DNA from: an uncultured Gammaproteobacteria bacterium
Lineage (GTDB): Bacteria; Patescibacteriota; Microgenomatia; CAZETR01; Amesbacteraceae
Direction: 5' to 3'
DNA length: 64,000 bases
Assembly (NCBI GenBank): GCA_964358085.1
Contig: CAYHNU010000001.1
Coordinates: forward strand, 11,220 to 75,219
Position 1 is the first letter of the stretch. Every line of letters begins with the position of its first letter. Position numbers and translations under genes: made by a program. Shown here in pieces: positions 36 through 27,503 of this stretch. The notes below the pieces were generated by a model that ran no database searches, was not told the origin of the DNA, and saw nothing but the letters and a program-made list of their open reading frames with translations.

Positions 36-1250
36 TTGCGCTTCTGGCCTTTATTTGGTTATTATGGCGCTATTATGCCAGAGATTAAACGTCCTCTCAT
101 AGTTGCGGCCATTTTCTATTTTTTCATCGCTCCTTTTTTCTTCCACCCCGATATCAAAATTATTTACTACCTCTCCCAATTTTTATCCCAGGGGACAGTC
201 AATATCTATCAGTATATCGCCGCCAATCCGGACAAAGCCCTGCTTGGCTCCTTTGTCTATCCGCCTTTGTCCTATTTTGTCATGGGGCTAGTTTACCCCG
301 TGGTTAATTTTTTGGCTGGCTCGGGATTTACTCCTTGGCTGGGTATGGGCAACGATGCCGTGGATATTGCCGGCATTTTCCGCTATTTGTTTCTCATCAA
401 AACTCCGCTCATTCTGGCTTTGTTAGCTACCGGTTGGGCGCTATCCCGGATATCCTCCCGGCGGGTAGTGCTGTGGATCTGGTTTTTTAACCCCATCACC
501 ATTTACGTAGTCGGCTTTATGGGCCAGATAGATATTTTACCGGTCTTGCTTTCTGTTTTGGCTCTGCTCCTTGCCAAACCCAAGCCGTTTTTGGCCGCCG
601 TACTTTTGGGATTGGGCGCAGCCCTCAAAACTTATCCACTCCTGCTTTTGCCTTTCCTGGCTCTCTTGTCCACTTCCAATCTTAAGCGGTCGGCTCTGAT
701 ATTTCTAGCTGGGTTGTCACCATATATTTTATTAGTCGCTCCATTTCTTACCACTCCAGCTTTTTATTCCGACACCCTAACCTCCGGGCTTACCCAGCGG
801 GTACTGCAACTCTCACTTCCCTTGGGTTATTCGGAAAACTTGTATCTAGTTCCGATAGTCTTAACTGGATTGCTCCTGGCCGCAGGTGTTTTGCACCGCG
901 GCCAAATTCACCGCTTGTCAGCTTACTGGATGGCCGCTTCTTTACTGCCGGTGGTTCTGTCTCACTTCCATCCCCAGTGGATTTTATGGTCCATGCCCTT
1001 TATTAGTCTGTGGATTGCTTCCAAATCGGACTGGCTGTCATTATTACTTTTTTCCGCCAGTTTTCTAGCGACAGTGTTTTTGTTTGCCGATAAATTTCTC
1101 ACCTGGGGACTGATTAGCCCCTTTAATCCCCAAATTCTCTTCCTGCCCGCTTTTTCAAATCCTTTATTGCAAAGCCTCTCTCACTCCGTCTTGGTGGGAG
1201 TTGGCTTGTGGATCAGCTTATGCGCGTGTTTTTCCTCGGACCGGTCATAG
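36..1250 (+). CDS. Polytopic membrane glycosyltransferase, GT-C type (GT87/DUF2029-like mannosyltransferase candidate)
   Basis: 404-aa ORF, about 10 hydrophobic segments. 'LLAKPKPFLAAVLLGLGAALKTYPLLLLPFLA' resembles DUF2029/GT87 polyprenyl-P-mannose-dependent transferases. Start is ambiguous (TTG at 36 or ATG at 75). Confidence 0.45.
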   Translation: MRFWPLFGYYGAIMPEIKRPLIVAAIFYFFIAPFFFHPDIKIIYYLSQFLSQGTVNIYQYIAANPDKALLGSFVYPPLSYFVMGLVYPVVNFLAGSGFTPWLGMGNDAVDIAGIFRYLFLIKTPLILALLATGWALSRISSRRVVLWIWFFNPITIYVVGFMGQIDILPVLLSVLALLLAKPKPFLAAVLLGLGAALKTYPLLLLPFLALLSTSNLKRSALIFLAGLSPYILLVAPFLTTPAFYSDTLTSGLTQRVLQLSLPLGYSENLYLVPIVLTGLLLAAGVLHRGQIHRLSAYWMAASLLPVVLSHFHPQWILWSMPFISLWIASKSDWLSLLLFSASFLATVFLFADKFLTWGLISPFNPQILFLPAFSNPLLQSLSHSVLVGVGLWISLCACFSSDRS

Positions 1251-1783
1251 TTTTAGCCGCTCTCGTCTTGGCTTCCTTGGCCAGCCGCAACCGGTTGGAT
1301 ACCGAAGTCTCCGGCAGTTCTTACTTACCACTCGTTGAAACCCGCCCCATCACTTTCACCCCCATCCATTCGGGTCTAAATATCATCCTTCTTCGCATGA
1401 AGAATCCGAACCTGGCGGACACGTCCGATTTTGTTTTTACACTTAAAGACCAAGCTAACCAGACAGTCCGGGAGCTTAATTTTTCCGGCCGCAACATCGG
1501 TGATCCCAGCGACGTCCGTTTGCAGTTTACCCCCATTCTGGATTCCGCTAATCAACCCCTGACTCTGACCATCATCTCTCCATCTACCTCCGTAAAAATC
1601 GAAAACGGTTTTCGTGCTTACTACCGCACTTCCGGTCTGTCACTTAATTTGGCCCCGCTTACCCGTGATCCTGTCTTTATGGTCGTGTGGGCGTTGCTTG
1701 TATTCGGGCTGACTCGTATCCCTGCGGATCCCAAGTCTTCCCCAAAGTTGCCTCTTCCGGCAAACTGTACACGCCGCCGATAA
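1208..1783 (+). CDS. Hypothetical membrane-anchored exported protein
   Basis: 191-aa ORF with N-terminal hydrophobic anchor 'VFFLGPVIVLAALVLASLA' followed by a soluble Ser/Thr/Pro-rich domain. Its 3' end overlaps the convergent gene 1677..3065 by about 107 bp, so it could be spurious. Confidence 0.3.
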   Translation: MDQLMRVFFLGPVIVLAALVLASLASRNRLDTEVSGSSYLPLVETRPITFTPIHSGLNIILLRMKNPNLADTSDFVFTLKDQANQTVRELNFSGRNIGDPSDVRLQFTPILDSANQPLTLTIISPSTSVKIENGFRAYYRTSGLSLNLAPLTRDPVFMVVWALLVFGLTRIPADPKSSPKLPLPANCTRRR

Positions 1784-3065
1784 ACAACGTGTTTGGCAGA
1801 TTTTGGTCGTCAGGCCAATATATTTTGCGAAATTCAAACTTGCCGAAGTCATATCCTTGCCGTGGTGCTTTTTGATATTCTTCCGGCGGTATTTTGAGAT
1901 AAAACAAAGTAAAAATATACGGCTGGGCCTGCCCAGTTTCCCACACCACGTGGCCATAATTATCGAGTATCGGAGAGATAATCCGCGCCACTTCTTTAAA
2001 TCCCCACTGCCAATCGCCGTAATGGTTATACGGCATCTGCCACAAGGCAGCCAGCACAAACCATCCCAAACTGATAACCGCCCAAGGAATAATCAGCCAC
2101 TTGAGCCATGTTTTAAGTTGTACCCACCCCACCGCGATTAACATGGTATTGGCCGCCCATAACGGCAGCACCCGCACCGGGTTGAACCAGCTCTGGGTAA
2201 TGACCGCCGGCAACGGGGCCAAAGCCAGCCAGGCCACTAACACTTTGTTTTTCCGCCAGTTTTTAATTAGCCACCAAATTCCTGATCCCCAGAAAAATAT
2301 TTCCCATCCGTAATACAGGCCAAATCCATCTACTCGTTGGTTGGGTTCATTGGTGCCCCGGACAAACAAGTTAGCTGGGGAAAAATACGAGAAATATTTC
2401 TGTCCTGCTTCCCGCCAGCTCCCGCCAGCCGATGTCCATCTGGCCCATCCCCCGCTAGACATAGCTATGCCGAACAGAACGATGGCTAAAATTACCCCCA
2501 AGCTCCGCCGGCCCCAGATGAGAAATGGCCATAAATAAATCTTAGCCGAGTGATAGGCAAACACATTTATTCCCGCTATCACCAACCCCAACGTATATTT
2601 CCCTTCTAGAATAAGACACATGGTCGCCAGGATTAATGTCAGAGACAAATTGGCTTCCCATGCCCCGCGCGAGTAAAAAATAGCCCACGGTTCGACAGCC
2701 ATCATTCCCGCCGCGATTAATCCTATTCGCTTCCCCAGCAACTTGGCTGAAATTAAATACAGCAAACCGATACTGGCCACTCCGGCCATCGCCGACAGTA
2801 ATCTGGTATTTATCTCGTTTAAGCCGAATATCCCCACAATCGGAGCCGTCAGATATGCATATAGCGGGGGTTTATAGTCATCGAACGAGCGCAACGATAG
2901 CGGCCACTTTGTTCCATACTCATCCGCCCCGGTTTTCCACAATGAATAAGCGTTATACCCTAGAGCCGCCTCGTCCCAGTTCACCGACCCCGGAGATTTG
3001 TCCAGCCAAACCAGCCGCAAGACGGCTCCCACCACCAGAATGACGATTAATATTTTGCGATCCAT
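1677..3065 (-). CDS. GT39/GT83-family (PMT/ArnT-like) polyprenyl-phosphate-sugar-dependent glycosyltransferase, paralog 1
   Basis: 462 aa, multi-TM. N-terminal loop 'WDEAALGYNAYSLWKTGADEYG', then 'YSRGAWEANLSL'. C-terminal module 'QPYIFTLFYLKIPPEEYQ' is shared with the paralogs at 4310, 7362, 8854 and 10410. ATG confirmed at 3065 (reverse complement). Confidence 0.7.
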   Translation of the reverse strand: MDRKILIVILVVGAVLRLVWLDKSPGSVNWDEAALGYNAYSLWKTGADEYGTKWPLSLRSFDDYKPPLYAYLTAPIVGIFGLNEINTRLLSAMAGVASIGLLYLISAKLLGKRIGLIAAGMMAVEPWAIFYSRGAWEANLSLTLILATMCLILEGKYTLGLVIAGINVFAYHSAKIYLWPFLIWGRRSLGVILAIVLFGIAMSSGGWARWTSAGGSWREAGQKYFSYFSPANLFVRGTNEPNQRVDGFGLYYGWEIFFWGSGIWWLIKNWRKNKVLVAWLALAPLPAVITQSWFNPVRVLPLWAANTMLIAVGWVQLKTWLKWLIIPWAVISLGWFVLAALWQMPYNHYGDWQWGFKEVARIISPILDNYGHVVWETGQAQPYIFTLFYLKIPPEEYQKAPRQGYDFGKFEFRKIYWPDDQNLPNTLFIGGVYSLPEEATLGKTWDPQGYESARIQATPTRP

Positions 3066-4267
3066 AATCCTTTTCCGTAGCCGTAAACCAACTCGTCATC
3101 GGCCTCTATTTTTTTAATAATTTTATCCTCCGGTATTCCCGCCATCTCCTTTGGTAAACCGACGTAAACATTTCCCGGGACGGGAGTAAATTCTCGCACC
3201 TCGATTTTTGAGTTGGGCAATATTTTGTAAAACTTTAACATCTCCTCCATTGGCCCGAATTTGCTCGTCACTACCACCCCCGGCACTTGATCTAGGTTAT
3301 CTTTTAGCCACAAATAAGTTTGCCGGTACAAATACACATCTGAATACTGCCACTTCAATTGATTAAAGAACATTTCTCTGTAAAAAAATCCGGCTCCAAC
3401 CAAGTATAAAGCACACACCAAACGCTTGTCCAAAACTTTCACCGCTTGGGCTACCAACATCACAATCGCTGGAATAAATAGTATCCCCCCGATCGTAAAA
3501 AATTTCTTGTCCAGAAATATTCCCCCCAGCCATCCGCCGATTATCCACCACTTTGTTCCTCCGGAACCGAACTTCACTAGCCCATAGATTATCACAGGCA
3601 CTTCCCAGTAATAGATAAGAGGCAATAATCCCTTGGGGGGCAAACCGCTCATTCCCGTTATTATCCTCGCGGCCAGGGGAGCAGTCCATTGTTCAAAATC
3701 CAGTAAAGCTATGCTTCTTTGTAAAACCGTGTTTATCGCCAGTCCTGGTTTGTTGTACAAGATTTTTCGCGCTAACGCCGGCAGGATATAAGTTTTTCCA
3801 GTGGCCAGAAAATTAGTTTTTTGGATTGCGTCTACTTTTTGGCCCAAGTAACCCCAGTTTAATTTATCAAACAAATTGTCGGTAGTGATTTTTGCCAAGC
3901 TCACCCGATCGGCTGCCAGGGCCAGTATCACAAGTACAATGGCCACAGCCTTTTGCCATCTTTTAGTGGCTGTCCAGGCCCATAATCCCGCCGCCAGAGC
4001 TGTCGTCTCCCATACGTGCCACAAGCTTAAGGTATTCAACCATGGATTAGCCGCTGCAATCACCGCCGCCCAGCCCGACCTGGTCTTTTTGGCCAGCAAG
4101 ATTACAATCACCGCCTGCGCGAGCCACCCCCAAATCCTAATTTGTGTCTCGCCCCATCCCCAACTTCCAAACCCTTGGGCCAACTCCACGCTTACCCCTA
4201 ACGGCTTTCCTATCGTCAGTCCCAATCGCACCACCATCACAATTCCTGCAGTAATTCCCGGCCACAT
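3047..4267 (-). CDS. Polytopic membrane protein, divergent relative of the PMT-like paralogs (shares only the C-terminal soluble module)
   Basis: About 406 aa with a multi-TM N-terminal half. C-terminal 'VVVTSKFGPMEEMLKFYKILPN' parallels the '...QPYIFTLFY..P' C-terminal domain of the neighbouring GT39-like proteins. Lacks the N-terminal DE-loop motif. ATG at 4265-4267 (reverse complement), TTG alternative at 4270. Confidence 0.45.
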   Translation of the reverse strand: MWPGITAGIVMVVRLGLTIGKPLGVSVELAQGFGSWGWGETQIRIWGWLAQAVIVILLAKKTRSGWAAVIAAANPWLNTLSLWHVWETTALAAGLWAWTATKRWQKAVAIVLVILALAADRVSLAKITTDNLFDKLNWGYLGQKVDAIQKTNFLATGKTYILPALARKILYNKPGLAINTVLQRSIALLDFEQWTAPLAARIITGMSGLPPKGLLPLIYYWEVPVIIYGLVKFGSGGTKWWIIGGWLGGIFLDKKFFTIGGILFIPAIVMLVAQAVKVLDKRLVCALYLVGAGFFYREMFFNQLKWQYSDVYLYRQTYLWLKDNLDQVPGVVVTSKFGPMEEMLKFYKILPNSKIEVREFTPVPGNVYVGLPKEMAGIPEDKIIKKIEADDELVYGYGKGLWIAKY

Positions 4268-4270
4268 CAA

Positions 4271-4300
4271 TTGATATTAAGCTCACGGACCTCGTATAAT
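4271..4300 (+). promoter_or_regulatory. Candidate sigma70-like promoter (TTGATA - 18 bp - TATAAT) in the divergent gap, driving the long plus-strand operon
   Basis: ttgata at 4271-4276 and tataat at 4295-4300, with an 18-bp spacer. ATG of the downstream gene at 4310. Confidence 0.3.
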
Positions 4301-4309
4301 CAAGTCTAC

Positions 4310-5860
4310 ATGCGCCGTTTACTGATTCTGGCCCTGGTCATCGGATCACTCACGCGTTTACTATGGCTCACTCGTTACCCGGTTGGATTTACTCCGGATG
4401 AAGCCGCTTTTGGCTACAACGCTTATTCTCTTCTGCTCACCGGCCGTGATGAATGGGGAGTCCCGTGGTGGCAATTGTTTTTTACCAACCTCCGTTCCTT
4501 TGGGGATTACAAACTCCCCCTTTACACTTTCTTGGCTATTCCTTCCGTTAAAATTTTCGGTTTGACTGAATTTGCTGTCCGTTTGCCCAACGCGGTCTTT
4601 GGCATTCTGGCCATAGGCGCCGTTTATCTGCTGGCCAATAAACTTTTTCCCCGCTCCGGTTCCATCGCCGCCCTCCTTCTGGCCATCTCTCCCTGGCATG
4701 TCCAGCTTTCCCGGGGGGCTTTCGAAGCCAATCTGGCTACCTTTCTCTTGCCTATGGGGATTTACCTGTTTCTAGAGAACAAGACCCTCTTTTCCACCCT
4801 ATTCTTTACCGCTGCCGCCTATTCCTATCATTCAGCCAGGCTAATTTTACCCTTCATTTTGGTCTTTATCTTTGTCAACTTCCGCAACAAATTCAAACCT
4901 CTCCTGCTTATTCCCCTTATAGTTTCACTATGGGGATTAAGTTCGGCCCGGGTGGCCGACGTGAGCATTTTCAGCCCCACTGATAACTGGTTGGGAGTGG
5001 CCACCCGCCGTTTTGAGGCCCGGGCTCTGGGTCTTCCGGACCAGATTGCCCGCGTTTTTTCCAACAAGCTGGTTTATTCCCTCTCCACTTTTTCTCAAAA
5101 TTATATTTCTTACTTTTCCCCCAATTTCCTTTTTACCTCTGGAGCTGGTGAGCCCTTTTACGGCATGATGCCGGGCAGGGGAGTGCTTTACTTAATTGAA
5201 CTGCCAATTTTGGTTTTGGCTCTGCTTTACTTTATCCGCAAACCCTCCCGATCAGTTTTCCTGTTACTAATACTCATAGCCCTGGCTCCTATCCCCGCCG
5301 CTCTGGCCAAAGGTCCGGGAGCCGCCGCCAACCGCGCCGTAATTATGCTTCCCTGGTTAATCATTCTTCTTTCCACCGCCATCGTCCGCCTCCCCCGCCA
5401 GTGGCTGACTCTCGTGATCGGCGCCTATATTACCAGCTTCGTTTTCTTTGGAGAGGATTATTTATACCACTCACCCTATCTTGCCGCTCCCTCCATGTCC
5501 TACGGCTGGCGGGATTTAATGCCGCGGCTTCAGGCCTTTACTGACCGTTTCCCCGACGTGCGTTTCAGCAGATCGCTCTCCGAGCCGCACATTTTCGTGG
5601 CCTTTTACACCCGCTTTGATCCCCGGGAGTATCAAAAAGCTTCTGCTTCTTGGCCTCGCAACGTTAAGTTTCTGGACCAATTCGACGGCTACTATTTAGG
5701 CAAATACCGGTTCGGAGTTATTCATCCCGCCGATCCGGTAACCATTCCTACTTTGTACATCGGCAAACCCGAAGATTTTTCGCCGGATTTCCCCGAATAT
5801 TTCCACATTAATTACCCGTCTTCCCGTCCAGCTATCATAGTTGCTCAGAAGCTTCCATGA
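4310..5860 (+). CDS. GT39/GT83-family (PMT/ArnT-like) glycosyltransferase, paralog 2
   Basis: 'PDEAAFGYNAYSLLLTGRDEWG', 'LSRGAFEANLATFLL', C-terminal 'EPHIFVAFYTRFDPREYQ'. Multi-TM. ATG at 4310 (TTG alternative at 4271). Confidence 0.7.
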   Translation: MRRLLILALVIGSLTRLLWLTRYPVGFTPDEAAFGYNAYSLLLTGRDEWGVPWWQLFFTNLRSFGDYKLPLYTFLAIPSVKIFGLTEFAVRLPNAVFGILAIGAVYLLANKLFPRSGSIAALLLAISPWHVQLSRGAFEANLATFLLPMGIYLFLENKTLFSTLFFTAAAYSYHSARLILPFILVFIFVNFRNKFKPLLLIPLIVSLWGLSSARVADVSIFSPTDNWLGVATRRFEARALGLPDQIARVFSNKLVYSLSTFSQNYISYFSPNFLFTSGAGEPFYGMMPGRGVLYLIELPILVLALLYFIRKPSRSVFLLLILIALAPIPAALAKGPGAAANRAVIMLPWLIILLSTAIVRLPRQWLTLVIGAYITSFVFFGEDYLYHSPYLAAPSMSYGWRDLMPRLQAFTDRFPDVRFSRSLSEPHIFVAFYTRFDPREYQKASASWPRNVKFLDQFDGYYLGKYRFGVIHPADPVTIPTLYIGKPEDFSPDFPEYFHINYPSSRPAIIVAQKLP

Positions 5861-7407
5861 AAAAAATCCTCTTACTGCTTCTCATCCCCACATTTTCTTT
5901 GATGTTGCGTCCCGGTATTTTTACGATGCACGATTTCCACGTCTTCCGCCAGTTTGAATTTGGCAAATGCGTTGCCGCCAAAACTTTTCCTTGCCGCTGG
6001 GCGCCGGATGCGGGGATGGGTTACGGCGAGCCGGTATTTAATTTCTACGGTCAGTTTCCTTACTGGATTGGCCAGATATTTCACGCCTTCGGTTTACAAA
6101 CAATTGATTCTGTCAAAGCCAATTTTATTTTGACAATAATAGTTTCAGCCGTGGCCATGTTTTACTTGGGCAAAAAATACTGGGGAAATCTAGGCGGGGT
6201 AGTAGCGGCTCTTTTTTATGTTTACGCTCCTTACCGGGCAGTGGACGTCTGGGTTCGCGGTTCTCTCAACGAAGCATATGCCCTGGCCTTATTTCCTTTG
6301 ATTTTTCTCTCGTTGGATAATTTCCTTGACGATCACCAACCCCGGCATCTCTGGTGGTTAGTTTTATTTGCTTCCGCTCTACTCATAACCCACAACATAT
6401 CCGCACTCATGATTGCCCCGTTTTTGGCTATATGGGTTTTCAAAAAATCTCCCGTGCCTTTCTCTCGCCTCATCGCCGCCGGAGCTGCCGTCTTTCTTTT
6501 AAGCGCTTTTTATTTGCTGCCCGTTATTTTTGAAAGTCACCTGGTTACTTTAAACCGCACCACCACCGACTATTATTCTTACCAGCTCCATTGGACCACT
6601 CTCAAGCAGCTCTTTATCTCCCGCTTTTGGGGTTATGGCGGCTCCGTTTGGGGCCCTAACGACACCATGAGTTTCTCCGTCGGTTACCTACAGTGGATCG
6701 TGCCGGTTCTAGTAGGTATATATTTTTTAATTAGGAAATTCAGGCATTCATTAGGTCAATTAGAAATTAGGTCAATTAGAAATTTTGCAGTATTCATTTC
6801 ATCAGCCTTCTTCGCTATTTTTCTCACTCACGGCAAGTCGGAATTTATCTGGAAACTTTTCCCTCCTTTAGCTTACGTCCAGTTCCCCTGGCGTTTCCTA
6901 GCCGTGGCAACCTTCTTTCTGGCCCTCTCTTCCGGCGCCATCGCGCAAGTGTTTCCCAAAAAATTATCAATCATCTTAATCAGCTTAGTTATCTTAATTA
7001 ACTTCTCCTTCTTCCGTCCCGATATTTGGCGTAACATCACGGACCGTGAACAATTTTCAGGAGCCTTGTGGGACGAGCAACGTTCTTCGGCTCTAAATGA
7101 TTTTTGGCCCCGCACAGCTCCCCAGTTACCCCGTTTTTTCGCCCCATCCCAACCTCAGGTTCTTCTTACTACAGATACTTACCAAAAAATCCAATACCCC
7201 ATTGTTTATTTCCCCGGCTGGAAATCGGAAGTTGAACTTTTCCCCTTCGGTCCGCTGGGTTTAATTACCGCCCGAGTCCCGCTAGACACGCAAATTACCC
7301 TGAAATTTACCGATACGCCTGTCCGGATCATCGGCAACATTACTAGTCTGGTCGCTGTGCTATGTCTCATCTTAAGTGGCTATTACTTATTGTCGCGGCG
7401 GGTTTAA
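5857..7407 (+). CDS. Large polytopic membrane protein of unknown function (possible GT-C glycosyltransferase)
   Basis: 516 aa, about 12 hydrophobic segments. N-terminal 'HDFHVFRQFEFGKCVAAKTFPCRWAPDAGMGYGEPVFNFYG'. ATGA overlap with the upstream stop. Contains a perfect 16-bp x2 tandem repeat at 6751-6782. Confidence 0.45.
   Translation: MKKILLLLLIPTFSLMLRPGIFTMHDFHVFRQFEFGKCVAAKTFPCRWAPDAGMGYGEPVFNFYGQFPYWIGQIFHAFGLQTIDSVKANFILTIIVSAVAMFYLGKKYWGNLGGVVAALFYVYAPYRAVDVWVRGSLNEAYALALFPLIFLSLDNFLDDHQPRHLWWLVLFASALLITHNISALMIAPFLAIWVFKKSPVPFSRLIAAGAAVFLLSAFYLLPVIFESHLVTLNRTTTDYYSYQLHWTTLKQLFISRFWGYGGSVWGPNDTMSFSVGYLQWIVPVLVGIYFLIRKFRHSLGQLEIRSIRNFAVFISSAFFAIFLTHGKSEFIWKLFPPLAYVQFPWRFLAVATFFLALSSGAIAQVFPKKLSIILISLVILINFSFFRPDIWRNITDREQFSGALWDEQRSSALNDFWPRTAPQLPRFFAPSQPQVLLTTDTYQKIQYPIVYFPGWKSEVELFPFGPLGLITARVPLDTQITLKFTDTPVRIIGNITSLVAVLCLILSGYYLLSRRV
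6751..6782. repeat. Perfect 16-bp x2 tandem duplication ttaggtcaattagaaa inside the CDS 5857..7407 (contains the ttagaaattag core)
   Basis: Direct read. Encodes SLGQLEIRSIRNF. Confidence 0.8.
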
Positions 7408-8864
7408 CTCTAAGGCTCGCTGCCATTAATTTTTTACCGCCTAGTCTCAACTGGGACGAAGTGTCACTGGGTTACAACGCTTATTCACTTCTCAAAACGG
7501 GCCGGGATGAATGGGGGACAATCCTGCCCACCATTATTCGCGCTTATGGAGACTACAAGTTACCTATTTACGTTTATTTAGCTGTTACTTCGCCGTTCTT
7601 TATCCGTTTACCTTCAATTATTTTCGGCACTCTGCTTATCATAGTTACATATCTATTAGGTCGACGGCTGGCTTCTCCGTTCGTTGGTCTGACTTCAGCT
7701 CTGCTGATAGCCATTTCCCCCTGGACCTGGTGGATATCCCGCATCGCTCTGGAGGCCAACGTGGGAGCCCTGCTTATCGCCATAGGCATCTACTGTCTAC
7801 TTGCCCGCAAACTTAATCTGGGAATACTTTTTCTGGGTCTATCCGTTTGGGCTTATAATTCCGCCCGCGTCTTCTCTCCGCTTTTCTTGACCGGCTACTG
7901 GTTAATCAATCGTCCCAAACTAACTCCTATCCACTATTCTCTAATTTCTATTTTCTTTATTCCTATGATTTTCCAACTCTTATCCTCCTCCGGCCAGGCT
8001 CGCTTAAACTGGCTGACCATTCTTGATTCTGGGGCCATCACCCAGATAAACCAGCTGCAATCCCGTCCCGGCGGCCGACTGGTGTACAACAAAGCCACTT
8101 ATTTCCTCTATCGCTTCGGCCAAAACTATATTTCCTATCTCTCTCCCAATTTCCTGTTTCTTAAAGGCGGCAATCATTATCAATTCAGTGTCCAAAACTA
8201 TGGCTTGCTATATTTAATTTGTCTGCCATTTTTTTATATTGGGATTTGGTATTTATTTAGAAATTATAAATTAGAAAGTAGAAATTCGTTGCTGTTGTGG
8301 TTACTGCTGGCGCCGGTCGCTGGCAGCCTTACCCGCGATGCACCCCACGTCCTGCGTGCCATCCCTTTGCTTCCTCTCCCCATGATCCTCACCGCCATCG
8401 GCCTGGACCGCTTCGGCCGCAATGTTAAGGTTCTCTTCTTCGTCGTCTTACTACTATCAACTATGAACTATTTATTCGTAACTAAAAGTTATCGCAATAA
8501 CTTTTCGGATGCCTGGCAATACGGTTATTCTCAAGTAATTCAATTTATTAAACCGCTGTATTCCCAATACGATCAAATCGTTTTTACCAAGAAATATGGC
8601 GAACCGCACGAATTCGTGGCTTACTTCTGGCCCTGGGATCCCGCCGATTTTTCCCAAAATAAGTCTTGGGACTACCACGCTAATTGGTATTGGGTGAACA
8701 GTCTGGACAAGATTAAGTTCGTCAACGATTGGGAGATTAGCACCATGGCGTTTAAACCAAACACTTTAGTTATTTCCAGTCCTGAAAGTGAAATTTCCGG
8801 CCGCGAGATAAAAAGGATTAATTTTCTCAATGGCCAGCCAGCCTTTATTATTTATGAAATCTAA
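7362..8864 (+). CDS. GT39/GT83-family (PMT/ArnT-like) glycosyltransferase, paralog 3
   Basis: 'WDEVSLGYNAYSLLKTGRDEWG', 'ISRIALEANVGALLI', C-terminal 'EPHEFVAYFWPWDPADFSQ'. ATG confirmed at 7362. Confidence 0.7.
   Translation: MSHLKWLLLIVAAGLTLRLAAINFLPPSLNWDEVSLGYNAYSLLKTGRDEWGTILPTIIRAYGDYKLPIYVYLAVTSPFFIRLPSIIFGTLLIIVTYLLGRRLASPFVGLTSALLIAISPWTWWISRIALEANVGALLIAIGIYCLLARKLNLGILFLGLSVWAYNSARVFSPLFLTGYWLINRPKLTPIHYSLISIFFIPMIFQLLSSSGQARLNWLTILDSGAITQINQLQSRPGGRLVYNKATYFLYRFGQNYISYLSPNFLFLKGGNHYQFSVQNYGLLYLICLPFFYIGIWYLFRNYKLESRNSLLLWLLLAPVAGSLTRDAPHVLRAIPLLPLPMILTAIGLDRFGRNVKVLFFVVLLLSTMNYLFVTKSYRNNFSDAWQYGYSQVIQFIKPLYSQYDQIVFTKKYGEPHEFVAYFWPWDPADFSQNKSWDYHANWYWVNSLDKIKFVNDWEISTMAFKPNTLVISSPESEISGREIKRINFLNGQPAFIIYEI
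8256..8287. repeat. AT-rich degenerate repeat tttagaaattataaattagaaagtagaaatt inside PMT-like paralog 3 (encodes FRNYKLESRN)
   Basis: Contains the ttagaaa/agaaatt cores seen at 6751, 13742 and 42941. Confidence 0.55.
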
Positions 8865-10413
8865 AATTCTGCTCATATTTATTGTTTTACTCGGGTCTGG
8901 ATTGAGATTGTTTCACTTAGGCTCTCGCCCATTGGGTTTCACTTGGGACGAAGCCGCACTCGGCTACAACGCCTACTCGCTTCTCAAAACCGGCCGTGAC
9001 GAATACGGAAAAATTTTGCCCGTGGTTCTCAAATCTTTCGGCGACTATAAACCCGGAGTTTATGCTTACCTGGCTGTTCCCAGCATCGCCACTCTCGGCC
9101 TGTCTGAATTTGCCACCCGCCTTCCCTCGGCCATTTTTGGCACCTTGCTCGTTATCGTTGTTTACCTTCTTACTCGAAACGCATTTACTGCTCTGCTTTT
9201 AGCCATCAATCCCTGGTCACTCTATTTCTCCCGTGGAGCGTGGGAAGCCAACATCGCTTTGGTTTTCACCACCCTGGGTGCCCTTTTGTTTATCAAACGC
9301 CGGTATTTAACATCGGCCCTCTTCTTTGGCCTGACATTTCTCACTTACCAAGGAGCTAAAATGTTCACCCCCTTGCTTCTGGTTTCCCTTTTTTTGATTT
9401 ACCGTCCCAATATTAAATTATTAATCAAACCCCTAATTTTCCTGTTTCTCCTGTTTCTCCCCATCCTCCTGGGTCTTGGCACCCAATCCGGCCGTTTGAA
9501 AGTCTTTAGTGTCTTCAGCTACACCCGCCGTCCTGACACCATTGTGGAAATAAAACGCCAGGACAAAAATAACCCTTTCCTTTTCACTCTCTTCGATTCA
9601 GAAATCATTGATCAGGGCAGGGGAGTGCTGCAAAGATATTTAAATCACCTCTCGCCTTATTTCCTGTTCTTCGCCGGTGATTGGCAAAACCTGCGCCATT
9701 CTGTTCCGTACTACGGTTACTTCCACCTCCCCGAAATACTGACCATTCTCATTGGCCTCGTCGTCTTACTACGAACCAATAACCAACTAACTAAGCTTCT
9801 GATAGCTTGGTTGCTTTTGGCTGCTTTGCCTTCGACTCTGTCACGCGACCTGGTCTCCGGCGTTCGCTCATTGCCCCTTCTCGTTCCGCTAATTATCATT
9901 TCCGGAATCGGCCTTGCCCAACTATTTCGTCATCGTTTCCTCTTATACTCTTACACTCTTATACTCTTGTTTTTCTTTGTTTATTATCTCGACTTATTTT
10001 ATGTTCACTCTCCCAATTTCACTGCCGCCGATATGCTTTATCCATACAAACCGGCCTTGACCCTGATTAAACAACATCTGGGGGAATATCAGCGAGTCAT
10101 TATCTCCGATAAGCTCGGCCAGCCATATATTTTTACCCTTTTTTATCTGCGCATTGACCCACTGGAGTACCAGCGTCAAAGCCAGTTGACAGCCAATCCC
10201 CAGGGGGACGTGGGCCATGTTGACCGCTTTGACCAATTTGTTTTTCGCCCGCTTTTTTTGCCCGAGGATAGGTATCTACGTTCCACAATTTTGATAGGGG
10301 ACAGATACGAGCTACCTGACCCAGATCTACCATCTATTCCCAACCTAGTCATGCTGGGGGACATTAAATATCCCAATGGCGCCCCGGGTCTGAAAGTGAT
10401 CGGTCTCAAGTGA
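8854..10413 (+). CDS. GT39/GT83-family (PMT/ArnT-like) glycosyltransferase, paralog 4
   Basis: 'WDEAALGYNAYSLLKTGRDEYG', 'FSRGAWEANIALVF', C-terminal 'QPYIFTLFYLRIDPLEYQ'. ATG at 8854 (earlier ATG at 8830 possible). Confidence 0.7.
   Translation: MKSKILLIFIVLLGSGLRLFHLGSRPLGFTWDEAALGYNAYSLLKTGRDEYGKILPVVLKSFGDYKPGVYAYLAVPSIATLGLSEFATRLPSAIFGTLLVIVVYLLTRNAFTALLLAINPWSLYFSRGAWEANIALVFTTLGALLFIKRRYLTSALFFGLTFLTYQGAKMFTPLLLVSLFLIYRPNIKLLIKPLIFLFLLFLPILLGLGTQSGRLKVFSVFSYTRRPDTIVEIKRQDKNNPFLFTLFDSEIIDQGRGVLQRYLNHLSPYFLFFAGDWQNLRHSVPYYGYFHLPEILTILIGLVVLLRTNNQLTKLLIAWLLLAALPSTLSRDLVSGVRSLPLLVPLIIISGIGLAQLFRHRFLLYSYTLILLFFFVYYLDLFYVHSPNFTAADMLYPYKPALTLIKQHLGEYQRVIISDKLGQPYIFTLFYLRIDPLEYQRQSQLTANPQGDVGHVDRFDQFVFRPLFLPEDRYLRSTILIGDRYELPDPDLPSIPNLVMLGDIKYPNGAPGLKVIGLK
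9441..9460. repeat. Perfect 10-bp x2 tandem duplication cctgtttctc in PMT-like paralog 4
   Basis: Direct read. Encodes FLFLLFL. Confidence 0.6.
9941..9969. repeat. Intragenic 8-bp tandem repeat (tcttaYac)x3.5 in PMT-like paralog 4
   Basis: tcttatac, tcttacac, tcttatac, tcttg. Encodes LYSYTLILL. Confidence 0.6.
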
Positions 10414-12005
10414 AAAATTTTTTGCTGATTCTCATTCTCGTCCTGGCATCCGTTTTACGGCTTTATAAACTTTCCTCCTATCCCGCCGGCCTGAACGCCG
10501 ACGAAGCGGCTCTGGGCTACAACGCCTACTCACTCCTTCTCACCGGAAAGGATGAGCATGGTCATCCTTGGCCGGTCAATCTGGAATCTTTTGGCGACTT
10601 CAAACCTGCCGGTTACGCGTATCTGCTTATTCCCTTTATCAAAGTTTTCGGCCTGACGGAATTCGCCGTCCGTCTCCCCTCGGCCGTCTTTGGGATATTG
10701 GGAGTGTTATTCATTTATTTATTAACTAAGGAATTAATTAACAAGGACTGTGGATTGATTGCAGCTCTTATGCTTACAATTTCGCCGTGGCACCTGCACT
10801 TCTCCCGCGGCGGTTGGGAAGTCAATGTAGCCACCACTCTCATACTTATCGGCGCCTGGCTTTTTCTTAAAAAACGCTTTGCCCTTTGCACTTTGCCTTT
10901 TGCCCTTTCTATGTACACCTACCAGTCTGCCCGCCTCATCGTTCCCCTCATGGGATTGGGTCTATTTTTTCTCTACCGCCCCAAACGAATTTTTATGGCT
11001 TTTGTTTTGGGCTTCTTACTCCTAATCCCTCTAACCTATAACCTAGTCACTACCGACGCCGCCTCCCGTTTGTCCGGCGTGGGGCTTCTGGCCGATGAGG
11101 GGCCTCTCAACCGGGCCAAGGAATTGCGCGGCCAGCATCCCGCTTGGAGCTCTCCTTTGTCCAGAATTTTACACAACCGCCCGGTTTTATATTCCATCCA
11201 ATTTTTGAAAAACTACACCGACCATTTTTTCGGCGACTTTCTTTTTGTTAACGGCGACGTTATACCCCGTAACCGCGTCCCCGAAACCGGCCTGCTCTAT
11301 TTCACCGACTTTATTTTCTTAGGGTTAGGAGCGGTTTATCTACTACGAACTATGAACCATGAACCAAGAACTAAATTGGTTTGGTTATGGCTTGCCATCG
11401 CCCCAATTGCTGCAGCTCTCACTTTCCAAACCCCCCACGCCCTCCGCGCCCAAAACATGGTCATCCCACTGACAATTATTTTGTCATTTGGCATTTATTC
11501 ATTTTTTATTGATTTAAAATTAAAAATTAAAAATTTAAAATTGTTCCGTTTAGTTATTGGAGGTTTTGTGATAGTTTATCTTTGGCAGGTGGCGCGCTAC
11601 TTGCACGAATATTACGTCCATTATCCCCAAACTTATCCATACGCCTGGGAATACGGCTTTAAAGAACTGGTGGCTTACGTGGGATCGGTTCAGGACAAAT
11701 ATGAAAAGATTTTAGTCACCGACAAATATGATCAGCCATACATCATTTTTCTCTTTTATTCCAAATACCCGCCCCAAAACTTCCAGGGCCGCCATACGCT
11801 GACTTTCCGCGACAAATACAACTTTTCCACTGTTCGTGACTACGACAAATTTCATTTTTCCGCCACCCCCTGGACAAAAGTCAGCGACATCCATTCGTCC
11901 CTCATAGTAGCCGCCCCGGAAGATATTCCCGACGTGGGTGTTAATATAGTTAAAACCATTAATTTCCCAAATGACCAACCAGCGTTTAAAATAATTAGTA
12001 ATTAA
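10410..12005 (+). CDS. GT39/GT83-family (PMT/ArnT-like) glycosyltransferase, paralog 5
   Basis: 'ADEAALGYNAYSLLLTGKDEHG', 'FSRGGWEVNVATTLI', C-terminal 'QPYIIFLFYSKYPPQNFQ'. GTG start overlapping the upstream TGA (GTGA). Confidence 0.7.
   Translation: MKNFLLILILVLASVLRLYKLSSYPAGLNADEAALGYNAYSLLLTGKDEHGHPWPVNLESFGDFKPAGYAYLLIPFIKVFGLTEFAVRLPSAVFGILGVLFIYLLTKELINKDCGLIAALMLTISPWHLHFSRGGWEVNVATTLILIGAWLFLKKRFALCTLPFALSMYTYQSARLIVPLMGLGLFFLYRPKRIFMAFVLGFLLLIPLTYNLVTTDAASRLSGVGLLADEGPLNRAKELRGQHPAWSSPLSRILHNRPVLYSIQFLKNYTDHFFGDFLFVNGDVIPRNRVPETGLLYFTDFIFLGLGAVYLLRTMNHEPRTKLVWLWLAIAPIAAALTFQTPHALRAQNMVIPLTIILSFGIYSFFIDLKLKIKNLKLFRLVIGGFVIVYLWQVARYLHEYYVHYPQTYPYAWEYGFKELVAYVGSVQDKYEKILVTDKYDQPYIIFLFYSKYPPQNFQGRHTLTFRDKYNFSTVRDYDKFHFSATPWTKVSDIHSSLIVAAPEDIPDVGVNIVKTINFPNDQPAFKIISN
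10877..10910. repeat. Intragenic 7-bp tandem repeat (ctttgcN)x4-5 in PMT-like paralog 5
   Basis: ctttgcc, ctttgca, ctttgcc, ttttgcc, ctttct. Encodes FALCTLPFALS. Confidence 0.6.
11344..11376. repeat. Motif ctacgaactatgaaccatgaaccaagaact (encodes LRTMNHEPRT) within PMT-like paralog 5
   Basis: 24 of 27 nt identical to 60661-60687. Related copy at 13756-13785. Confidence 0.7.
11516..11543. repeat. 28-bp heptad element aaaatta-aaaatta-aaaattt-aaaattg, in frame within the PMT-like gene (encodes LKIKNLKL)
   Basis: Differs from the 42937-42964 copy only at the first base of each heptad. Same reading frame. Confidence 0.8.
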
Positions 12006-12006
12006 C

Positions 12007-12843
12007 ATGAAGGACCAAAAGAAATTAGCCATATTTGAAGGGAAAAAGATTCGCCGGCATTGGAATGGTGAACAAGAAAAATGGTATTTCTCTGTCGTGG
12101 ATGTAGTATCCGCTTTAACAGATAGCATCGATCCAAGAAACTATTGGAAGGTTCTTAAAAACAGGTTAAAGAATGAAGGAAGCGAGGTGGTTACAAAGTG
12201 TAACCAACTGAAAATGCAGGCTGCAGACGACAAATATTATCTTACCGATGTAGCCGATACAGAAGTAATGTTTCGTATTATTCAGTCTATTCCTTCTCCA
12301 AACGCCGAACCGTTTAAACTCTGGTTAGCCAGGGTTGGCTATGAGCGGATCGAGGAGTCTCAAGATCCAGAACTGGCCATTAACCGGGCTTTAAAAGCCT
12401 ACCTGAGAAAGGGTTATAGCAGAGATTGGATTAACCAACGTTTAAAAAGCATTGAAATTCGAAAAGCCCTGACGGATGAATGGGAAAACAGAGGAGTTAA
12501 GGCTGGCGACGAGTTTGCCATTCTGACTGATGATATTACCTTTGCTTGGGCGGGGATAACTACCAAGCGGTATAAAAATTACAAAGGGCTTAAGAAGGAA
12601 AACCTGCGAGACAATATGACTAATTTGGAATTGGTCTTGGATATGCTGGCCGAAACGGCTACCACCGAAATTTCCCAAAAGCGTAAATCGCAGACATTTA
12701 TGGGTAATCGGCGAGTTGCGAAAGAGGGTGGAGGCATAGCCGGCAATGCCAGAAAACAGATTGAGGCCAAGACTGGCAGGAGAATTGTGAGTAAATACAA
12801 GTTTATCCCTGCAAGTGCTCGAAAAACATTAAAAAACGTATGA
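12007..12843 (+). CDS. DinD-like / BRO-N domain protein (DNA-damage-inducible protein D family)
   Basis: 278 aa. N-terminal 'FEGKKIRRHWNGEQEKWYFSVVDVVSALTDS...NYWKVLKNRL' matches the BRO-N/DinD pattern. Central 'FAILTDDITFAWAGITTKRYKNYKGLKKENL...LAETATTE' matches my recollection of E. coli DinD. Starts 1 bp after the upstream stop, and its stop overlaps the next start (ATGA). Confidence 0.55.
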   Translation: MKDQKKLAIFEGKKIRRHWNGEQEKWYFSVVDVVSALTDSIDPRNYWKVLKNRLKNEGSEVVTKCNQLKMQAADDKYYLTDVADTEVMFRIIQSIPSPNAEPFKLWLARVGYERIEESQDPELAINRALKAYLRKGYSRDWINQRLKSIEIRKALTDEWENRGVKAGDEFAILTDDITFAWAGITTKRYKNYKGLKKENLRDNMTNLELVLDMLAETATTEISQKRKSQTFMGNRRVAKEGGGIAGNARKQIEAKTGRRIVSKYKFIPASARKTLKNV

Positions 12844-23404: not shown

Positions 23405-23453
23405 TATACAGCCAAAATACTTTGTTGTTTGGTGTTAGAATAAGAAGTTATAC

Positions 23454-25216: not shown

Positions 25217-25291
25217 TCAATTATACAGAAGAACTTACAACATCTGTATAATTGTCTTGTGGTACAAACTTTTATACAATTCGTGCGGTTT

Positions 25292-25648
25292 ATGTTTGTG
25301 GGCGGATTGGCAGTAGGGGTTGATTTTGTGGTTTATTTTGGGTTGTTATTTTTACTACCAGTTATTCCTATTTCTTTGGCCAAAGCTATATCTTACATCT
25401 GTGGAGCAACTGTTTCATTTATTGGCCACCGGTATTTTGTATTTGAAGCCCACGACCGCCACCCGCAGCATCAAATCCTGCCCTTCAGTGTTCTCTACAG
25501 CAGTTCTTTAGTAGCCAATAACTTAACCAACCTAGTTATTTTAAATCTGACGGGAGTAAAAATCTTGGCCTGGTTTGTGGCCATCTGCTTATCAACTACA
25601 ATAAATTATCTGGGCATGAAATTTGGGGTGTTCAGGAAAATTAATTAA
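25292..25648 (+). CDS. GtrA-family small membrane protein (polyprenyl-P-sugar flippase-like)
   Basis: 118 aa, 4 TM. 'FVRFMFVGGLAVGVDFVVYFGLL', 'GHRYFVFE'. 'KILAWFVAICLSTTINYLGMKFGVF' is typical of GtrA-like proteins. ATG at 25292. Confidence 0.6.
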   Translation: MFVGGLAVGVDFVVYFGLLFLLPVIPISLAKAISYICGATVSFIGHRYFVFEAHDRHPQHQILPFSVLYSSSLVANNLTNLVILNLTGVKILAWFVAICLSTTINYLGMKFGVFRKIN

Positions 25649-25692
25649 ATCATACCTCTTTACACTTTATAAAAATATGATATATATGACGT

Positions 25693-27502: not shown

Positions 27503-27503
27503 A

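What the first reader, a model, noticed from the sequence alone, without database searches (positions are those of the whole stretch)
1677..12005. Five GT39/GT83-like (PMT/ArnT-type) paralogs within 12 kb, plus a sixth at 61053
All share an N-terminal loop motif W/ADEAALGYNAYSLL(K/L)TG(R/K)DE(W/Y/H)G, an (F/Y)SRGAWEAN segment and a C-terminal soluble module (Q/E)P(Y/H)I(F/I)TLFY...P.E(Y/F)Q. They are clearly divergent from one another, so this is an old expansion rather than a recent duplication. Multiple paralogs imply multiple acceptor substrates or linkages. Each of them has picked up different small repeat insertions. A neighbouring membrane protein (3047..4267) retains only the C-terminal module.
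Basis: seen in the sequence. Interest (0 to 1): 0.75.

Follow-up and report, generated by a model that had tools for sequence, protein, structure and literature searches.

The report
Ancient GT-C glycosyltransferase gene array
A tiny-genome groundwater bacterium (Candidatus Amesbacteria, Microgenomates) carries five old, side-by-side copies of a membrane sugar-transferase gene plus a catalytically dead copy. The same array is kept across the related Microgenomates lineages sampled, so it probably builds a core cell-surface sugar polymer, but the enzyme type itself is already known.

Summary

Three sub-claims need correcting:
- The "sixth" gene (61053..62372) is a separate PMT_2-type orthogroup. 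It lacks the extended motifs and the C-terminal module.
- ORF B (3047..4267 -) is a full-length-derived seventh paralog. It has lost the catalytic loop but kept more than the C-terminal module.
- Only 2 of 11 small repeats in these genes coincide with indels.

Each paralog has its own 1:1 orthologs. The order C-(YfhO-like D)-E-F-G-GT2-GT4-GT-C-GT2 is conserved across Amesbacteria, Woesebacteria, Shapirobacteria, Collierbacteria and Daviesbacteria, with 4-7 copies in most complete loci. The duplications are therefore very old.

Most likely these are polyprenyl-phosphate-sugar-dependent transferases, each making a different linkage in a conserved envelope glycan. This is a new member of a known kind. 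An unexplained side observation is a strong excess of heptanucleotide tandem repeats.

The parts
1677..3065 (-). Paralog A, 462 aa, PMT_2-type GT-C glycosyltransferase. It is transcribed with B on the minus strand.
   Evidence: Pfam PMT_2 42.4 bits against GA 26.1. It is 30-35% identical to C, E, F and G. A 78-80% ortholog sits at the same position in L001 and L007, and A-type copies on the minus strand occur in L009, L017 and L019.
3047..4270 (-). ORF B (likely start 4267, 406 aa): a degenerate seventh paralog. The membrane core and C-terminal module are kept, the first extracytoplasmic (catalytic) loop is deleted, and the Asp of the DE pair is replaced (VSVE).
   Evidence: No Pfam or NCBIfam hit. 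hhalign of family profile A3 against B-family profile A4 gives 96.6%, E 6.7e-10, over 354 columns. The C-terminal module alone matches at 87%, E 3.7e-6. Only 12 relatives were found among 5.8e9 proteins. B-like proteins lie next to A-type genes in L009, L017 and L019, and the 595-aa L017 form still has TIDEA.
4271..4300 (+). Best sigma-70-like promoter match in the first 13 kb (TTGATA-18-TATAAT, 11 of 12). It lies in the 42-bp divergent gap between B and C.
   Evidence: This is a consensus match only, not evidence of function.
4310..5860 (+). Paralog C (longest ORF starts at 4271; the ATG at 4310 matches the ortholog start), PMT_2-type GT-C. It is the first gene of the C-D-E-F-G operon-like run.
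   Evidence: PMT_2 34.5 bits. Orthologs at 80%, 51% and 48% identity in L001, L004 and L005. C-class copies hold the same relative position in most loci.
5857..7407 (+). D, 516 aa, a different GT-C family (PTPS_related / YfhO-like) embedded in the array.
   Evidence: PF10131 39.7 bits against GA 26.4. In L005 the ortholog also hits YfhO weakly. Orthologs at 76%, 53% and 45% identity. No significant relation to the five paralogs.
7362..8864 (+). Paralog E, 500 aa.
   Evidence: PMT_2 17.7 bits, below GA, but BLASTP E 1e-49 to 1e-72 to A, C, F and G. Orthologs at 78%, 43% and 50% identity. Its class signature is EPHE in place of QPYI.
8830..10413 (+). Paralog F (the NCBI protein starts at 8854, 519 aa). 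This is the protein that was modelled.
10410..12005 (+). Paralog G, 531 aa, the most conserved class.
   Evidence: PMT_2 38.8 bits, PMT 23.5 (GA 22.7), STT3 24.2 (GA 24.5). Orthologs at 82%, 67% and 63% identity. A G-class copy follows the F-class copy in nearly all loci that extend downstream of it.
12840..16458 (+). Block conserved downstream of the array: GT2 (12840..13619), GT4 (13616..14605), PIG-V-like GT-C (14554..15714) and GtrB/ArnC-like GT2 (15715..16458).
   Evidence: Pfam. The same order occurs in L004 and L005; L001 has the same genes with an extra 558-aa paralog and two AAA_14/DUF4143 genes interleaved. The best PDB matches of the last GT2 are GtrB 5ekp (7e-12) and ArnC 9hwj.
36..1250 (+). 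GT87-like GT-C (likely start 75), upstream of the array.
   Evidence: PF09594 28.5 bits against GA 25. Orthologs at 77%, 47% and 31% identity in L001, L005 and L004.
58749..59453 (-). Dol-P-Man-synthase-like GT2, 234 aa. It is a candidate polyprenyl-phosphate-sugar donor synthase.
   Evidence: Best NCBIfam matches are AglJ 8.7e-35, PpgS and Dol-P-hexose transferase, all below cut-off. The best PDB match is P. furiosus DPMS 5mlz, 3.2e-16, over residues 1-213.
61053..62372 (+). H, 439 aa: a separate PMT_2-type GT-C orthogroup, not a member of the five-paralog subfamily.
   Evidence: hhalign to A2 gives 97.7% over H residues 12-343 only. No Pfam hit for this sequence. It has its own orthologs at 48-87% identity, several of which pass PMT_2 and are named GT39 by NCBI. 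Its C-terminus is unrelated to the module.

Best explanation
A, C, E, F and G are five anciently duplicated GT-C fold glycosyltransferases of the PMT_2 (GT39/GT83-like) type.

Proposed mechanism:
- Each has about 11-13 membrane helices and a first extracytoplasmic loop carrying an invariant Asp-Glu pair that acts as the catalytic base and metal site.
- Further conserved residues (D57, D72/K74, R97, S134-R135, R346) are proposed to hold the phosphate of a polyprenyl-phosphate-sugar donor.
- A small alpha/beta C-terminal domain sits on the outer face.
- They take single sugars from lipid-phosphate carriers. These carriers are made on the cytoplasmic side by the DPMS/GtrB/ArnC-like GT2 enzymes of the same window and then flipped across the membrane.
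- The sugars are added, outside the membrane, to a growing envelope glycoconjugate.
- Each ortholog class performs a distinct, non-redundant step (a different acceptor position or linkage).
- They work together with the co-clustered YfhO-like (D), GT87-like and PIG-V-like GT-C enzymes and the cytoplasmic GT2/GT4 enzymes. In logic this resembles mycobacterial lipomannan/arabinan assembly or the RgtA-D set of Rhizobium.
- ORF B is a catalytically dead paralog that probably serves as a partner or scaffold for A.

Shown here: homology, fold, residue conservation, age and synteny of the array, loss of the loop in B, and presence of donor-synthase-like GT2 genes.
Inferred: the donor type, the extracytoplasmic site of action, the one-step-per-paralog model, and the nature of the product.
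For: - All classes look active: D40, E41, D57, R97, S134 and R135 are 90-100% conserved in every ortholog class among about 380 proteins.
- Non-redundancy: 1:1 orthologs for C, D, E, F and G at 43-82% identity against 30-36% between paralogs. Positional orthology C..E-F-G holds in nearly all of 80 loci from Amesbacteria, Woesebacteria, Shapirobacteria, Collierbacteria, Daviesbacteria and Blackburnbacteria. 64 of 86 loci carry 4-7 copies.
- Class-specific residues: QPYI versus EPHE versus EPHI; R339-D340 is the consensus only in the F class among the assigned classes; E58 becomes Q in about half of the C class.
- Operon-like packing: 4-bp to 46-bp overlaps between successive ORFs.
- Pathway context: the conserved downstream GT2-GT4-PIG-V-like-GT2 block; GT2 genes whose best solved relatives are DPMS, GtrB and ArnC; a MOP-family flippase at 55903..57240.
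- B.
Against: - No biochemical data exist for any member.
- The sugar, lipid carrier and acceptor are unknown.
- E and F fall below the PMT_2 gathering score.
- No sequence-level link to any solved GT-C or to E. coli ArnT. Alignment of the DE loop to ArnT is only marginal (best z 3.0), so the assignment of catalytic residues rests on position in the model and on general GT-C knowledge.
- No GtrA/ArnE-type small flippase was identified in the window.
- Tandem paralogs could equally be subunits of one hetero-oligomeric enzyme, or protein O-glycosyltransferases.
- The product being a 'conserved envelope glycan' is inferred only from conservation of the cluster.
Confidence: 0.55

Rival explanations
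1. They are bacterial protein O-mannosyl (O-glycosyl) transferases, PMT-like. Each paralog would serve a different set of secreted or surface proteins (pilins, S-layer or other envelope proteins), perhaps acting as hetero-dimers as yeast Pmt1-Pmt2 do.
Against: - There are no MIR domains.
- Structural similarity to Pmt4 is no better than to ALG12, ArnT or AglB.
- To my knowledge, characterised bacterial PMT systems use one enzyme, not five conserved classes.
- The array is embedded with GT87-, PIG-V- and YfhO-like GT-Cs and cytoplasmic GT2/GT4 genes, which is typical of glycan or lipoglycan pathways.
Confidence: 0.2
2. They are side-chain decorating enzymes of 'three-component' systems (GT2 synthase, flippase and GT-C). 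Each would add a different branch sugar to an already polymerised wall polysaccharide or teichoic-acid-like polymer, rather than building its backbone.
For: GtrB/ArnC/DPMS-like GT2 genes and a flippase lie in the window. YfhO-like D sits in the array. The three-component logic is widespread (PMC11127046; PMC9574508, listed).
Against: - To my knowledge, decorating systems are usually strain-variable, whereas this array is conserved in order and class across whole candidate phyla.
- Only two or three candidate donor synthases are available for at least eight GT-C enzymes.
- No GtrA-type flippase was found.
Confidence: 0.2
3. They are ArnT-like lipid modifiers. They would transfer cationic or other sugars to membrane lipids or a lipid-A-like anchor, changing surface charge.
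Against: - hhalign to E. coli ArnT is not significant.
- There is no NCBIfam ArnT hit.
- No arnA/B/D-type Ara4N synthesis genes were found among the window ORFs that were scanned.
- To my knowledge, CPR bacteria lack lipid A biosynthesis.
Confidence: 0.05

Closest known systems
ArnT (GT83; lipid A 4-amino-4-deoxy-L-arabinose transferase; PDB 5ezm/5f15)
   Different: 12-15% identity. No detectable sequence relationship to E. coli ArnT by hhalign. No Ara4N pathway genes were found. The host presumably lacks lipid A. There are five conserved paralog classes instead of one gene.
Protein O-mannosyltransferases (GT39: yeast Pmt1/2/4; bacterial Pmt such as Rv1002c)
   Different: There is no MIR domain and a different C-terminal module. 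Only one of the five reaches the PMT cut-off. The neighbouring genes point to glycan or lipoglycan assembly.
Mycobacterial extracytoplasmic GT-C sets (EmbC/A/B tandem paralogs, AftA-D, PimE/GT87, MptA-C) fed by Ppm1
   Different: There is no sequence-level orthology to any of them. The organism is a CPR bacterium with a roughly 1-Mb genome, and the product is unknown.
Rhizobium RgtA/B/C/D (PMT_2-type GalA transferases)
   Same: As I recall, these are several PMT_2 paralogs, partly adjacent, that use one lipid-phosphate sugar donor. Each is specific for a different acceptor position.
   Different: The acceptor there is LPS core or lipid A. This comparison rests on my own knowledge and was not tested here.
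Three-component extracytoplasmic glycosylation systems (GtrA/B/C type; GT136 system of PMC11127046)
   Same: Polyprenyl-P-sugar synthase (GT2), flippase and GT-C transferase. Candidates for the first and third components are present.
   Different: No GtrA-like flippase was identified. The array is conserved rather than serotype-variable. There are many GT-C genes per locus.

Membership tests
GT-C fold glycosyltransferase superfamily (GT-C_A type) | Multi-pass membrane domain whose fold matches solved GT-C enzymes. | tested here: met
GT-C fold glycosyltransferase superfamily (GT-C_A type) | Conserved acidic residue(s) in the first extracytoplasmic loop. | tested here: met
   D40-E41 are invariant in the five and 97-100% conserved in all classes. 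They lie at the N-terminus of the first helix after TM1. Equivalence to ArnT D55 or Pmt D77 by superposition was not possible with these tools.
GT-C fold glycosyltransferase superfamily (GT-C_A type) | Uses a polyprenyl-phosphate-linked sugar donor. | not testable with these tools
   There is only indirect support: DPMS/GtrB/ArnC-like GT2 genes in the window.
Pfam PMT_2 (PF13231) | Whole-protein score at or above the gathering score of 26.1 bits. | tested here: inconclusive
   Met by A (42.4), C (34.5) and G (38.8). Not met by E (17.7) or F (20.4). H and B have no hit. E and F are tied to the family through BLASTP E of 1e-49 or better to A, C and G, and through orthologs with precomputed PF13231 hits.
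GT39 protein O-mannosyltransferase (PF02366 PMT) | PMT model score at or above 22.7 bits. | tested here: not met
   Only G reaches it (23.5). A, C, E and F have no hit.
GT39 protein O-mannosyltransferase (PF02366 PMT) | Transfers mannose to Ser/Thr of proteins. | not testable with these tools
GT83 ArnT | Sequence membership (NCBIfam ArnT equivalog, or a significant profile match to ArnT). | tested here: not met
   No ArnT model hit. hhalign of A3 against E. coli ArnT gives probability 0.1%.
GT83 ArnT | Associated Ara4N donor pathway (arnA/B/C/D) and a lipid A acceptor. | tested here: not met
   No arnA/B/D-like genes among the window ORFs that were scanned. Absence of lipid A in CPR bacteria is from my own knowledge and was not tested.
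TIGR03663 (Agl23-type archaeal protein) | Score at or above 126.25 bits. | tested here: not met
   The best score is 46.9 bits (A) and covers the N-terminal third only.
Three-component extracytoplasmic glycosylation system | GT2 polyprenyl-phosphate-sugar synthase encoded nearby. | tested here: inconclusive
   15715..16458 and 58749..59453 best match GtrB/ArnC and DPMS. All NCBIfam scores are below cut-off.
Three-component extracytoplasmic glycosylation system | Dedicated small flippase (GtrA or ArnE/F type). | tested here: not met
   None was found among the ORFs scanned. Only a MOP/Wzx-type flippase is present, at 55903..57240. Small ORFs were not searched exhaustively.

The most novel reading that the evidence does not exclude
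The class-wide C-D-E-F-G array, with the divergent A-B pair that includes a dead paralog, encodes a hetero-oligomeric extracytoplasmic 'assembly line'. It would build a Microgenomates-specific lipoglycan or wall glycan that has no counterpart in cultured bacteria and is central to the envelope, and possibly to host attachment, of these ultra-small cells. The heptanucleotide-repeat insertions would mark a lineage-specific mutational process that remodels the enzymes' loops.
Probability: 0.15. Interest if true: 0.7.

Novelty: new member of a known kind. Interest (0 to 1): 0.42.

Why it matters
Microgenomates have genomes of roughly 1 Mb, yet they keep 4-7 tandem GT-C paralogs (about 1% of the genome) in a fixed order across several candidate phyla. 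That argues for an essential, still unknown surface glycoconjugate in a large uncultured part of the bacterial tree.

The array gives a concrete handle for studying CPR envelope chemistry: defined ortholog classes, conserved catalytic residues, and candidate donor synthases.

I found no paper describing it in the searchable library. The enzyme type itself is ordinary, so the value lies in the evolutionary pattern and in its use as a target list, not in new biochemistry.

Tried and rejected
- Sequence searches of the PDB with the five-paralog profile, with G alone and with the 35-sequence profile found no GT-C chain, even at E of 1 to 10.
- hhalign of the family profile against E. coli ArnT was not significant. 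Local alignments of the N-termini to ArnT were marginal (best z 3.0). The DE loop could therefore not be mapped onto a characterised enzyme by sequence.
- A single-sequence hhalign of B against the five paralogs looked negative (2%). It became significant only after I built a B-family profile. The reading 'B is unrelated' was rejected.
- D is not a member of the subfamily.
- 'H is the sixth paralog of the same subfamily' was rejected.
- 'Each paralog has its own repeat insertion' was rejected for this window.
- 'Recent duplication' was rejected.
- Literature searches for CPR/Microgenomates with GT39, GT-C or ArnT gave nothing relevant. One apparent hit was the surname Arntzen.
- The Agl23 (TIGR03663) and archaeal STT3 NCBIfam hits are far below their cut-offs and were not used.
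- The C-terminal module was checked for stand-alone or other domain contexts. It occurs only at the extreme C-terminus of proteins of about 500-580 aa, or of fragments of them.


Full report
**What is in the window**

The first 12 kb holds nine long ORFs.
- Plus strand: Z (36..1250), a small membrane ORF (1208..1783), C (4271/4310..5860), D (5857..7407), E (7362..8864), F (8830/8854..10413) and G (10410..12005).
- Minus strand: A (1677..3065) and B (3047..4267/4270).
- Successive genes overlap by 4-46 nt. C-D-E-F-G and B-A therefore look like two divergent operons separated by about 42 bp.
- That gap holds the best sigma-70-like match of the region (4271..4300, 11 of 12; consensus match only).

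**Check of the observation**

A, C, E, F and G align over their full length at 33-36% identity, with 47 invariant columns. Pairwise BLASTP E-values are about 1e-49 to 1e-88.

- DE(A/V)(A/S)(L/F)GYNAYSL..TG.DE.G (F residues 40-60);
- SR..(W/F/L)E(A/V)N (residues 134-141);
- the C-terminal (Q/E)P(Y/H).(F/I)...(F/Y)(Y/F/W) ... P block (residues 431-444).

Pfam PMT_2 is exceeded by A (42.4 bits), C (34.5) and G (38.8). E (17.7) and F (20.4) fall under the 26.1-bit cut-off. G also marginally passes PF02366 PMT, and narrowly misses STT3 (24.2 against 24.5).

Three parts of the finding do not hold as written.

1. The gene at 61053..62372 (H) is not a sixth copy of this subfamily.
 - It is 19% identical.
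 - It keeps a DE pair (LDEASQ) but lacks the GYNAYSL/TGxDE and SRGAWEAN motifs.
 - It aligns to the family profile only over the membrane domain (hhalign 97.7%, E 1.5e-12, H residues 12-343).
 - Its C-terminus does not match the module (0.1%).
 - It has its own orthologs at 48-87% identity in the same genomes, several named GT39 and passing PMT_2.
 - It is therefore a separate PMT_2-type orthogroup.

2. B is more than a carrier of the C-terminal module.
 - As a single sequence it gave nothing.
 - A profile of its 12 known relatives aligns to the family profile over 354 columns, from TM1 to the C-terminal domain (96.6%, E 6.7e-10).
 - The about 50-residue first outer loop (DEAALGYNAYSLLKTGRDE...GDYKP) is missing, and the Asp of the DE pair is replaced (VSVE).
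 - The C-terminal domain alone matches at 87% (E 3.7e-6).
 - B-like genes lie beside A-type genes on the minus strand in another Amesbacteria MAG (L009), in a MAG of uncertain label (L017) and in a Woesebacteria genome (L019).
 - The 595-aa L017 form still carries TIDEA.
 - B is therefore a degenerate seventh paralog, very likely non-catalytic, kept as an intact ORF (72-75% identical orthologs).

3. The small-repeat claim is mostly not supported.
 - TRF lists 11 small arrays in A, E, F and G and none in C.
 - Aligned against close orthologs, nine are just compositional runs with no length difference.
 - Only E 8257..8286 ((TTAGAAA)x4.3; 8 residues are absent in L001) and G 11512..11542 ((ATTAAAA)x4.4; +3 residues) fall in indel-variable loops.

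**Fold**

An AlphaFold2 model of F built on 35 sequences has mean pLDDT 90.4 and pTM 0.89.
- Foldseek against the PDB gives STT3A/B, ArnT, PglB, Pmt4 and AftB at E 1e-6 to 5e-3. ArnT is the best full-length match (TM-score 0.52-0.54 both ways).
- The fold is therefore GT-C beyond reasonable doubt. Structure does not single out GT39 or GT83.
- In the model the DE pair opens the first helix after TM1 (H39-54). From general knowledge of ArnT, PMT and PglB, that is the catalytic position.
- I could not superpose structures, and sequence alignment to E. coli ArnT is only suggestive.
- In a library of 1.84 billion representatives the module is found 2,456 times (E of 1e-3 or better). In the 150 best hits listed it almost always ends at the protein's C-terminus, in proteins of about 500-580 aa or in shorter, probably truncated, predictions.

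**Origin and age**

F is 100% identical to a protein of a Patescibacteria MAG. Its named close relatives are Candidatus Amesbacteria.

In three Amesbacteria contigs the order Z - small ORF - A(-) - B(-) - C - D - E - F - G is the same as here, continuing to GT2 - GT4 - PIG-V-like after an extra 558-aa paralog and with an AAA_14/DUF4143 gene before the PIG-V-like gene. At 61% and 51% identity of F, the core C-D-E-F-G-GT2-GT4-GT-C-GT2 persists.

Orthologs are 1:1:

| Gene | Identity to orthologs in L001 / L004 / L005 |
|---|---|
| C | 80 / 51 / 48% |
| D | 76 / 53 / 45% |
| E | 78 / 43 / 50% |
| F | 81 / 61 / 51% |
| G | 82 / 67 / 63% |

A scan of one genome per species found at least 478 relatives. 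The 80 best loci come from Amesbacteria, Woesebacteria, Shapirobacteria, Collierbacteria, Daviesbacteria, Blackburnbacteria and unnamed Microgenomates. Some record titles say 'uncultured Gammaproteobacteria', which I take to be mislabelled bins.

Counting proteins that score at least 150 bits against the five-paralog HMM gives this distribution:

| Copies per locus | Loci |
|---|---|
| 4 | 9 |
| 5 | 37 |
| 6 | 16 |
| 7 | 2 |

Most loci with fewer copies lie on truncated contigs.

In nearly every locus the genes in the three positions around the anchor are best hits to E, F and G respectively. A C-class gene lies further upstream in most, and variable extra copies lie beyond that. The duplications therefore predate the split of these candidate phyla.

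**Are all copies functional and distinct?**

Across about 380 members, D40, E41, D57, R97, S134, R135, Y173 and R346 are 90-100% conserved in each ortholog class.

Other positions are class-specific:
- QPYI in F/G/A, against EPHE in E and EPHI in C.
- R339-D340 is the consensus only in F among the assigned classes.
- E58 becomes Q in about half of C.
- E139 is relaxed in E.

That is the pattern expected for active enzymes with different specificities.

**Context**

The whole 64-kb window is devoted to glycan synthesis.
- Other GT-C families are present: GT87-like Z, YfhO/PTPS_related D, PIG-V-like 14554..15714 and H.
- There are many GT2 and GT4 genes and many methyltransferases, including FkbM-type.
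- Sugar-nucleotide genes are present (epimerase/dehydratase, nucleotidyltransferases), along with genes that could belong to a heptose pathway (SIS domain; fused nucleotidyltransferase/GHMP kinase).
- A MOP-family flippase is present.
- Two small GT2 proteins most resemble polyprenyl-phosphate-sugar synthases. 58749..59453 matches P. furiosus Dol-P-Man synthase (3e-16, full catalytic domain) and AglJ/PpgS. 15715..16458 matches GtrB and ArnC.
- GC content is 45-51% in 1-16 kb and 56-64 kb, but 31-41% in 16-52 kb. This suggests a variable island flanked by conserved genes.

**Most likely mechanism**

The following is inferred from the above and from established GT-C biochemistry.
- The GT2 synthases load sugars onto a polyprenyl phosphate on the cytoplasmic face.
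- After flipping, each GT-C paralog transfers that sugar, on the outer face, to a specific position of a growing envelope glycoconjugate.
- The set C, D, E, F, G (plus A, Z, the PIG-V-like enzyme and H) supplies the different linkages.
- The enzyme classes involved are cytoplasmic GT4/GT2, GT87, a PIG-V-like enzyme, PMT_2 paralogs and a DPMS-like donor synthase. They parallel mycobacterial PIM/lipomannan/arabinan assembly.
- A PIM-type pathway has been proposed for a saccharibacterium on similar grounds (PMC6031116).
- Conservation of the array argues for a core envelope component rather than a strain-variable antigen.
- Rival readings cannot be excluded: protein O-glycosylation, side-chain decoration in three-component systems (PMC11127046), and ArnT-like lipid modification. 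They are scored separately.
- B probably acts as a non-catalytic partner of A. This is inferred from its adjacent, co-oriented, overlapping gene and its conserved pairing with an A-type gene. It has not been tested.

**Comparison with what is known, and novelty**

The proteins belong to a known superfamily and a known Pfam family. Public annotation already calls relatives 'GT39 family' or 'Ara4N transferase-like'.

What I could not find described is:
- the subfamily itself, which has no solved or characterised member detectable by sequence;
- its fixed multi-paralog array across the Microgenomates;
- the dead paralog.

I rate it a new member of a known kind, with moderate interest.

**Side observation: heptanucleotide repeats**

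Small tandem repeats are over-represented in the window: 47 arrays against 14.5 +/- 4.7 in 30 block shuffles. Period-7 arrays of at least 3.5 copies are especially so: 9 against 0.1.
- In 1.48 Mb of related loci, period 7 is the commonest period. There are 304 period-7 arrays, against 74 for period 6 and 183 for period 9. Period-7 arrays with at least 3.5 copies number 161, or about 7 per 64 kb.
- With the window added (170 arrays), 156 lie inside long ORFs, and copy number peaks at 4-5.
- A 61-kb E. coli glycan-locus control has 2 period-7 arrays among 16.
- Inside family genes, residues encoded by such arrays are in HMM insert states 36% of the time, against 8.6% background. Periods 9, 10 and 12 are near background.
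- Arrays at orthologous sites can carry different units.
- One possible explanation is slippage in 7-nt steps, of which only +21 nt survives in coding sequence. This is not shown.
- An abundance of heptameric repeats in some bacteria has been noted before (abstract of PMC4692102).

Noticed in passing
window 8257..8286, 10877..10908, 11342..11373, 11512..11542, 13707..13731, 13761..13788, 42937..42963, 60654..60682, 63943..63970; also L001-L086: Heptanucleotide tandem repeats of about 4-5 copies lie inside coding regions and are strongly over-represented. The window has 9 against 0.1 expected from shuffles. Period 7 is the commonest repeat period in 1.48 Mb of related Microgenomates loci, and an E. 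coli control lacks the effect. In the GT-C family genes these arrays are 4-fold enriched in insertion positions, and orthologous sites can carry different repeat units. The unit AAATTAA (encoding KLKIKNL) recurs at unrelated sites.
   Followed up: partly
window 16000..52000: This is a low-GC stretch (31-41% against 45-51% in the flanks). It is filled with GT2/GT4 genes, many SAM and FkbM-type methyltransferases, sugar-nucleotide genes and possible heptose-pathway genes (SIS 38211..38804; nucleotidyltransferase/GHMP kinase fusion 38801..40522). It looks like a variable glycan island between conserved blocks.
   Followed up: partly
window 35481..37508, 46224..48449, 48427..51630, 52065..54647 (also 28333..30099 on the minus strand): A second family of large polytopic membrane proteins (675-1067 aa) has no Pfam hit. 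46224 and 48427 are 30% identical over 738 aa (E 6e-91). 35481 (E 1e-6) and 52065 (E 2e-4) are more distant. 46224, 48427 and 52065 share a weak match to one region of NCBIfam MmpA. 35481 shows a faint resemblance to the YfhO-like D (E 0.023). These may be further unclassified GT-C-like enzymes or polymerases.
   Followed up: partly
window 12007..12843: A BRO-N domain ORF, a type common in phages and mobile elements, sits between G and the conserved GT2. In the 80%-identical relative L007, G is followed directly by that GT2. In L001 the same slot holds an extra, divergent 558-aa paralog (LNHDEMD...). The slot downstream of G therefore varies between close relatives.
   Followed up: partly
L007, L010, L012, L016, L017 and many other loci (record titles): Many contigs carrying this Microgenomates-type array are deposited as 'uncultured Gammaproteobacteria bacterium', and one as 'Clostridia bacterium'. 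Given their gene content and their closest relatives, these labels look wrong.
   Followed up: no
window 4268..4309: Only about 42 bp separate the divergent starts of B and C. The promoter-like TTGATA-18-TATAAT ends 9 nt before the likely ATG of C at 4310, so the C-G transcript would be leaderless or nearly so.
   Followed up: no
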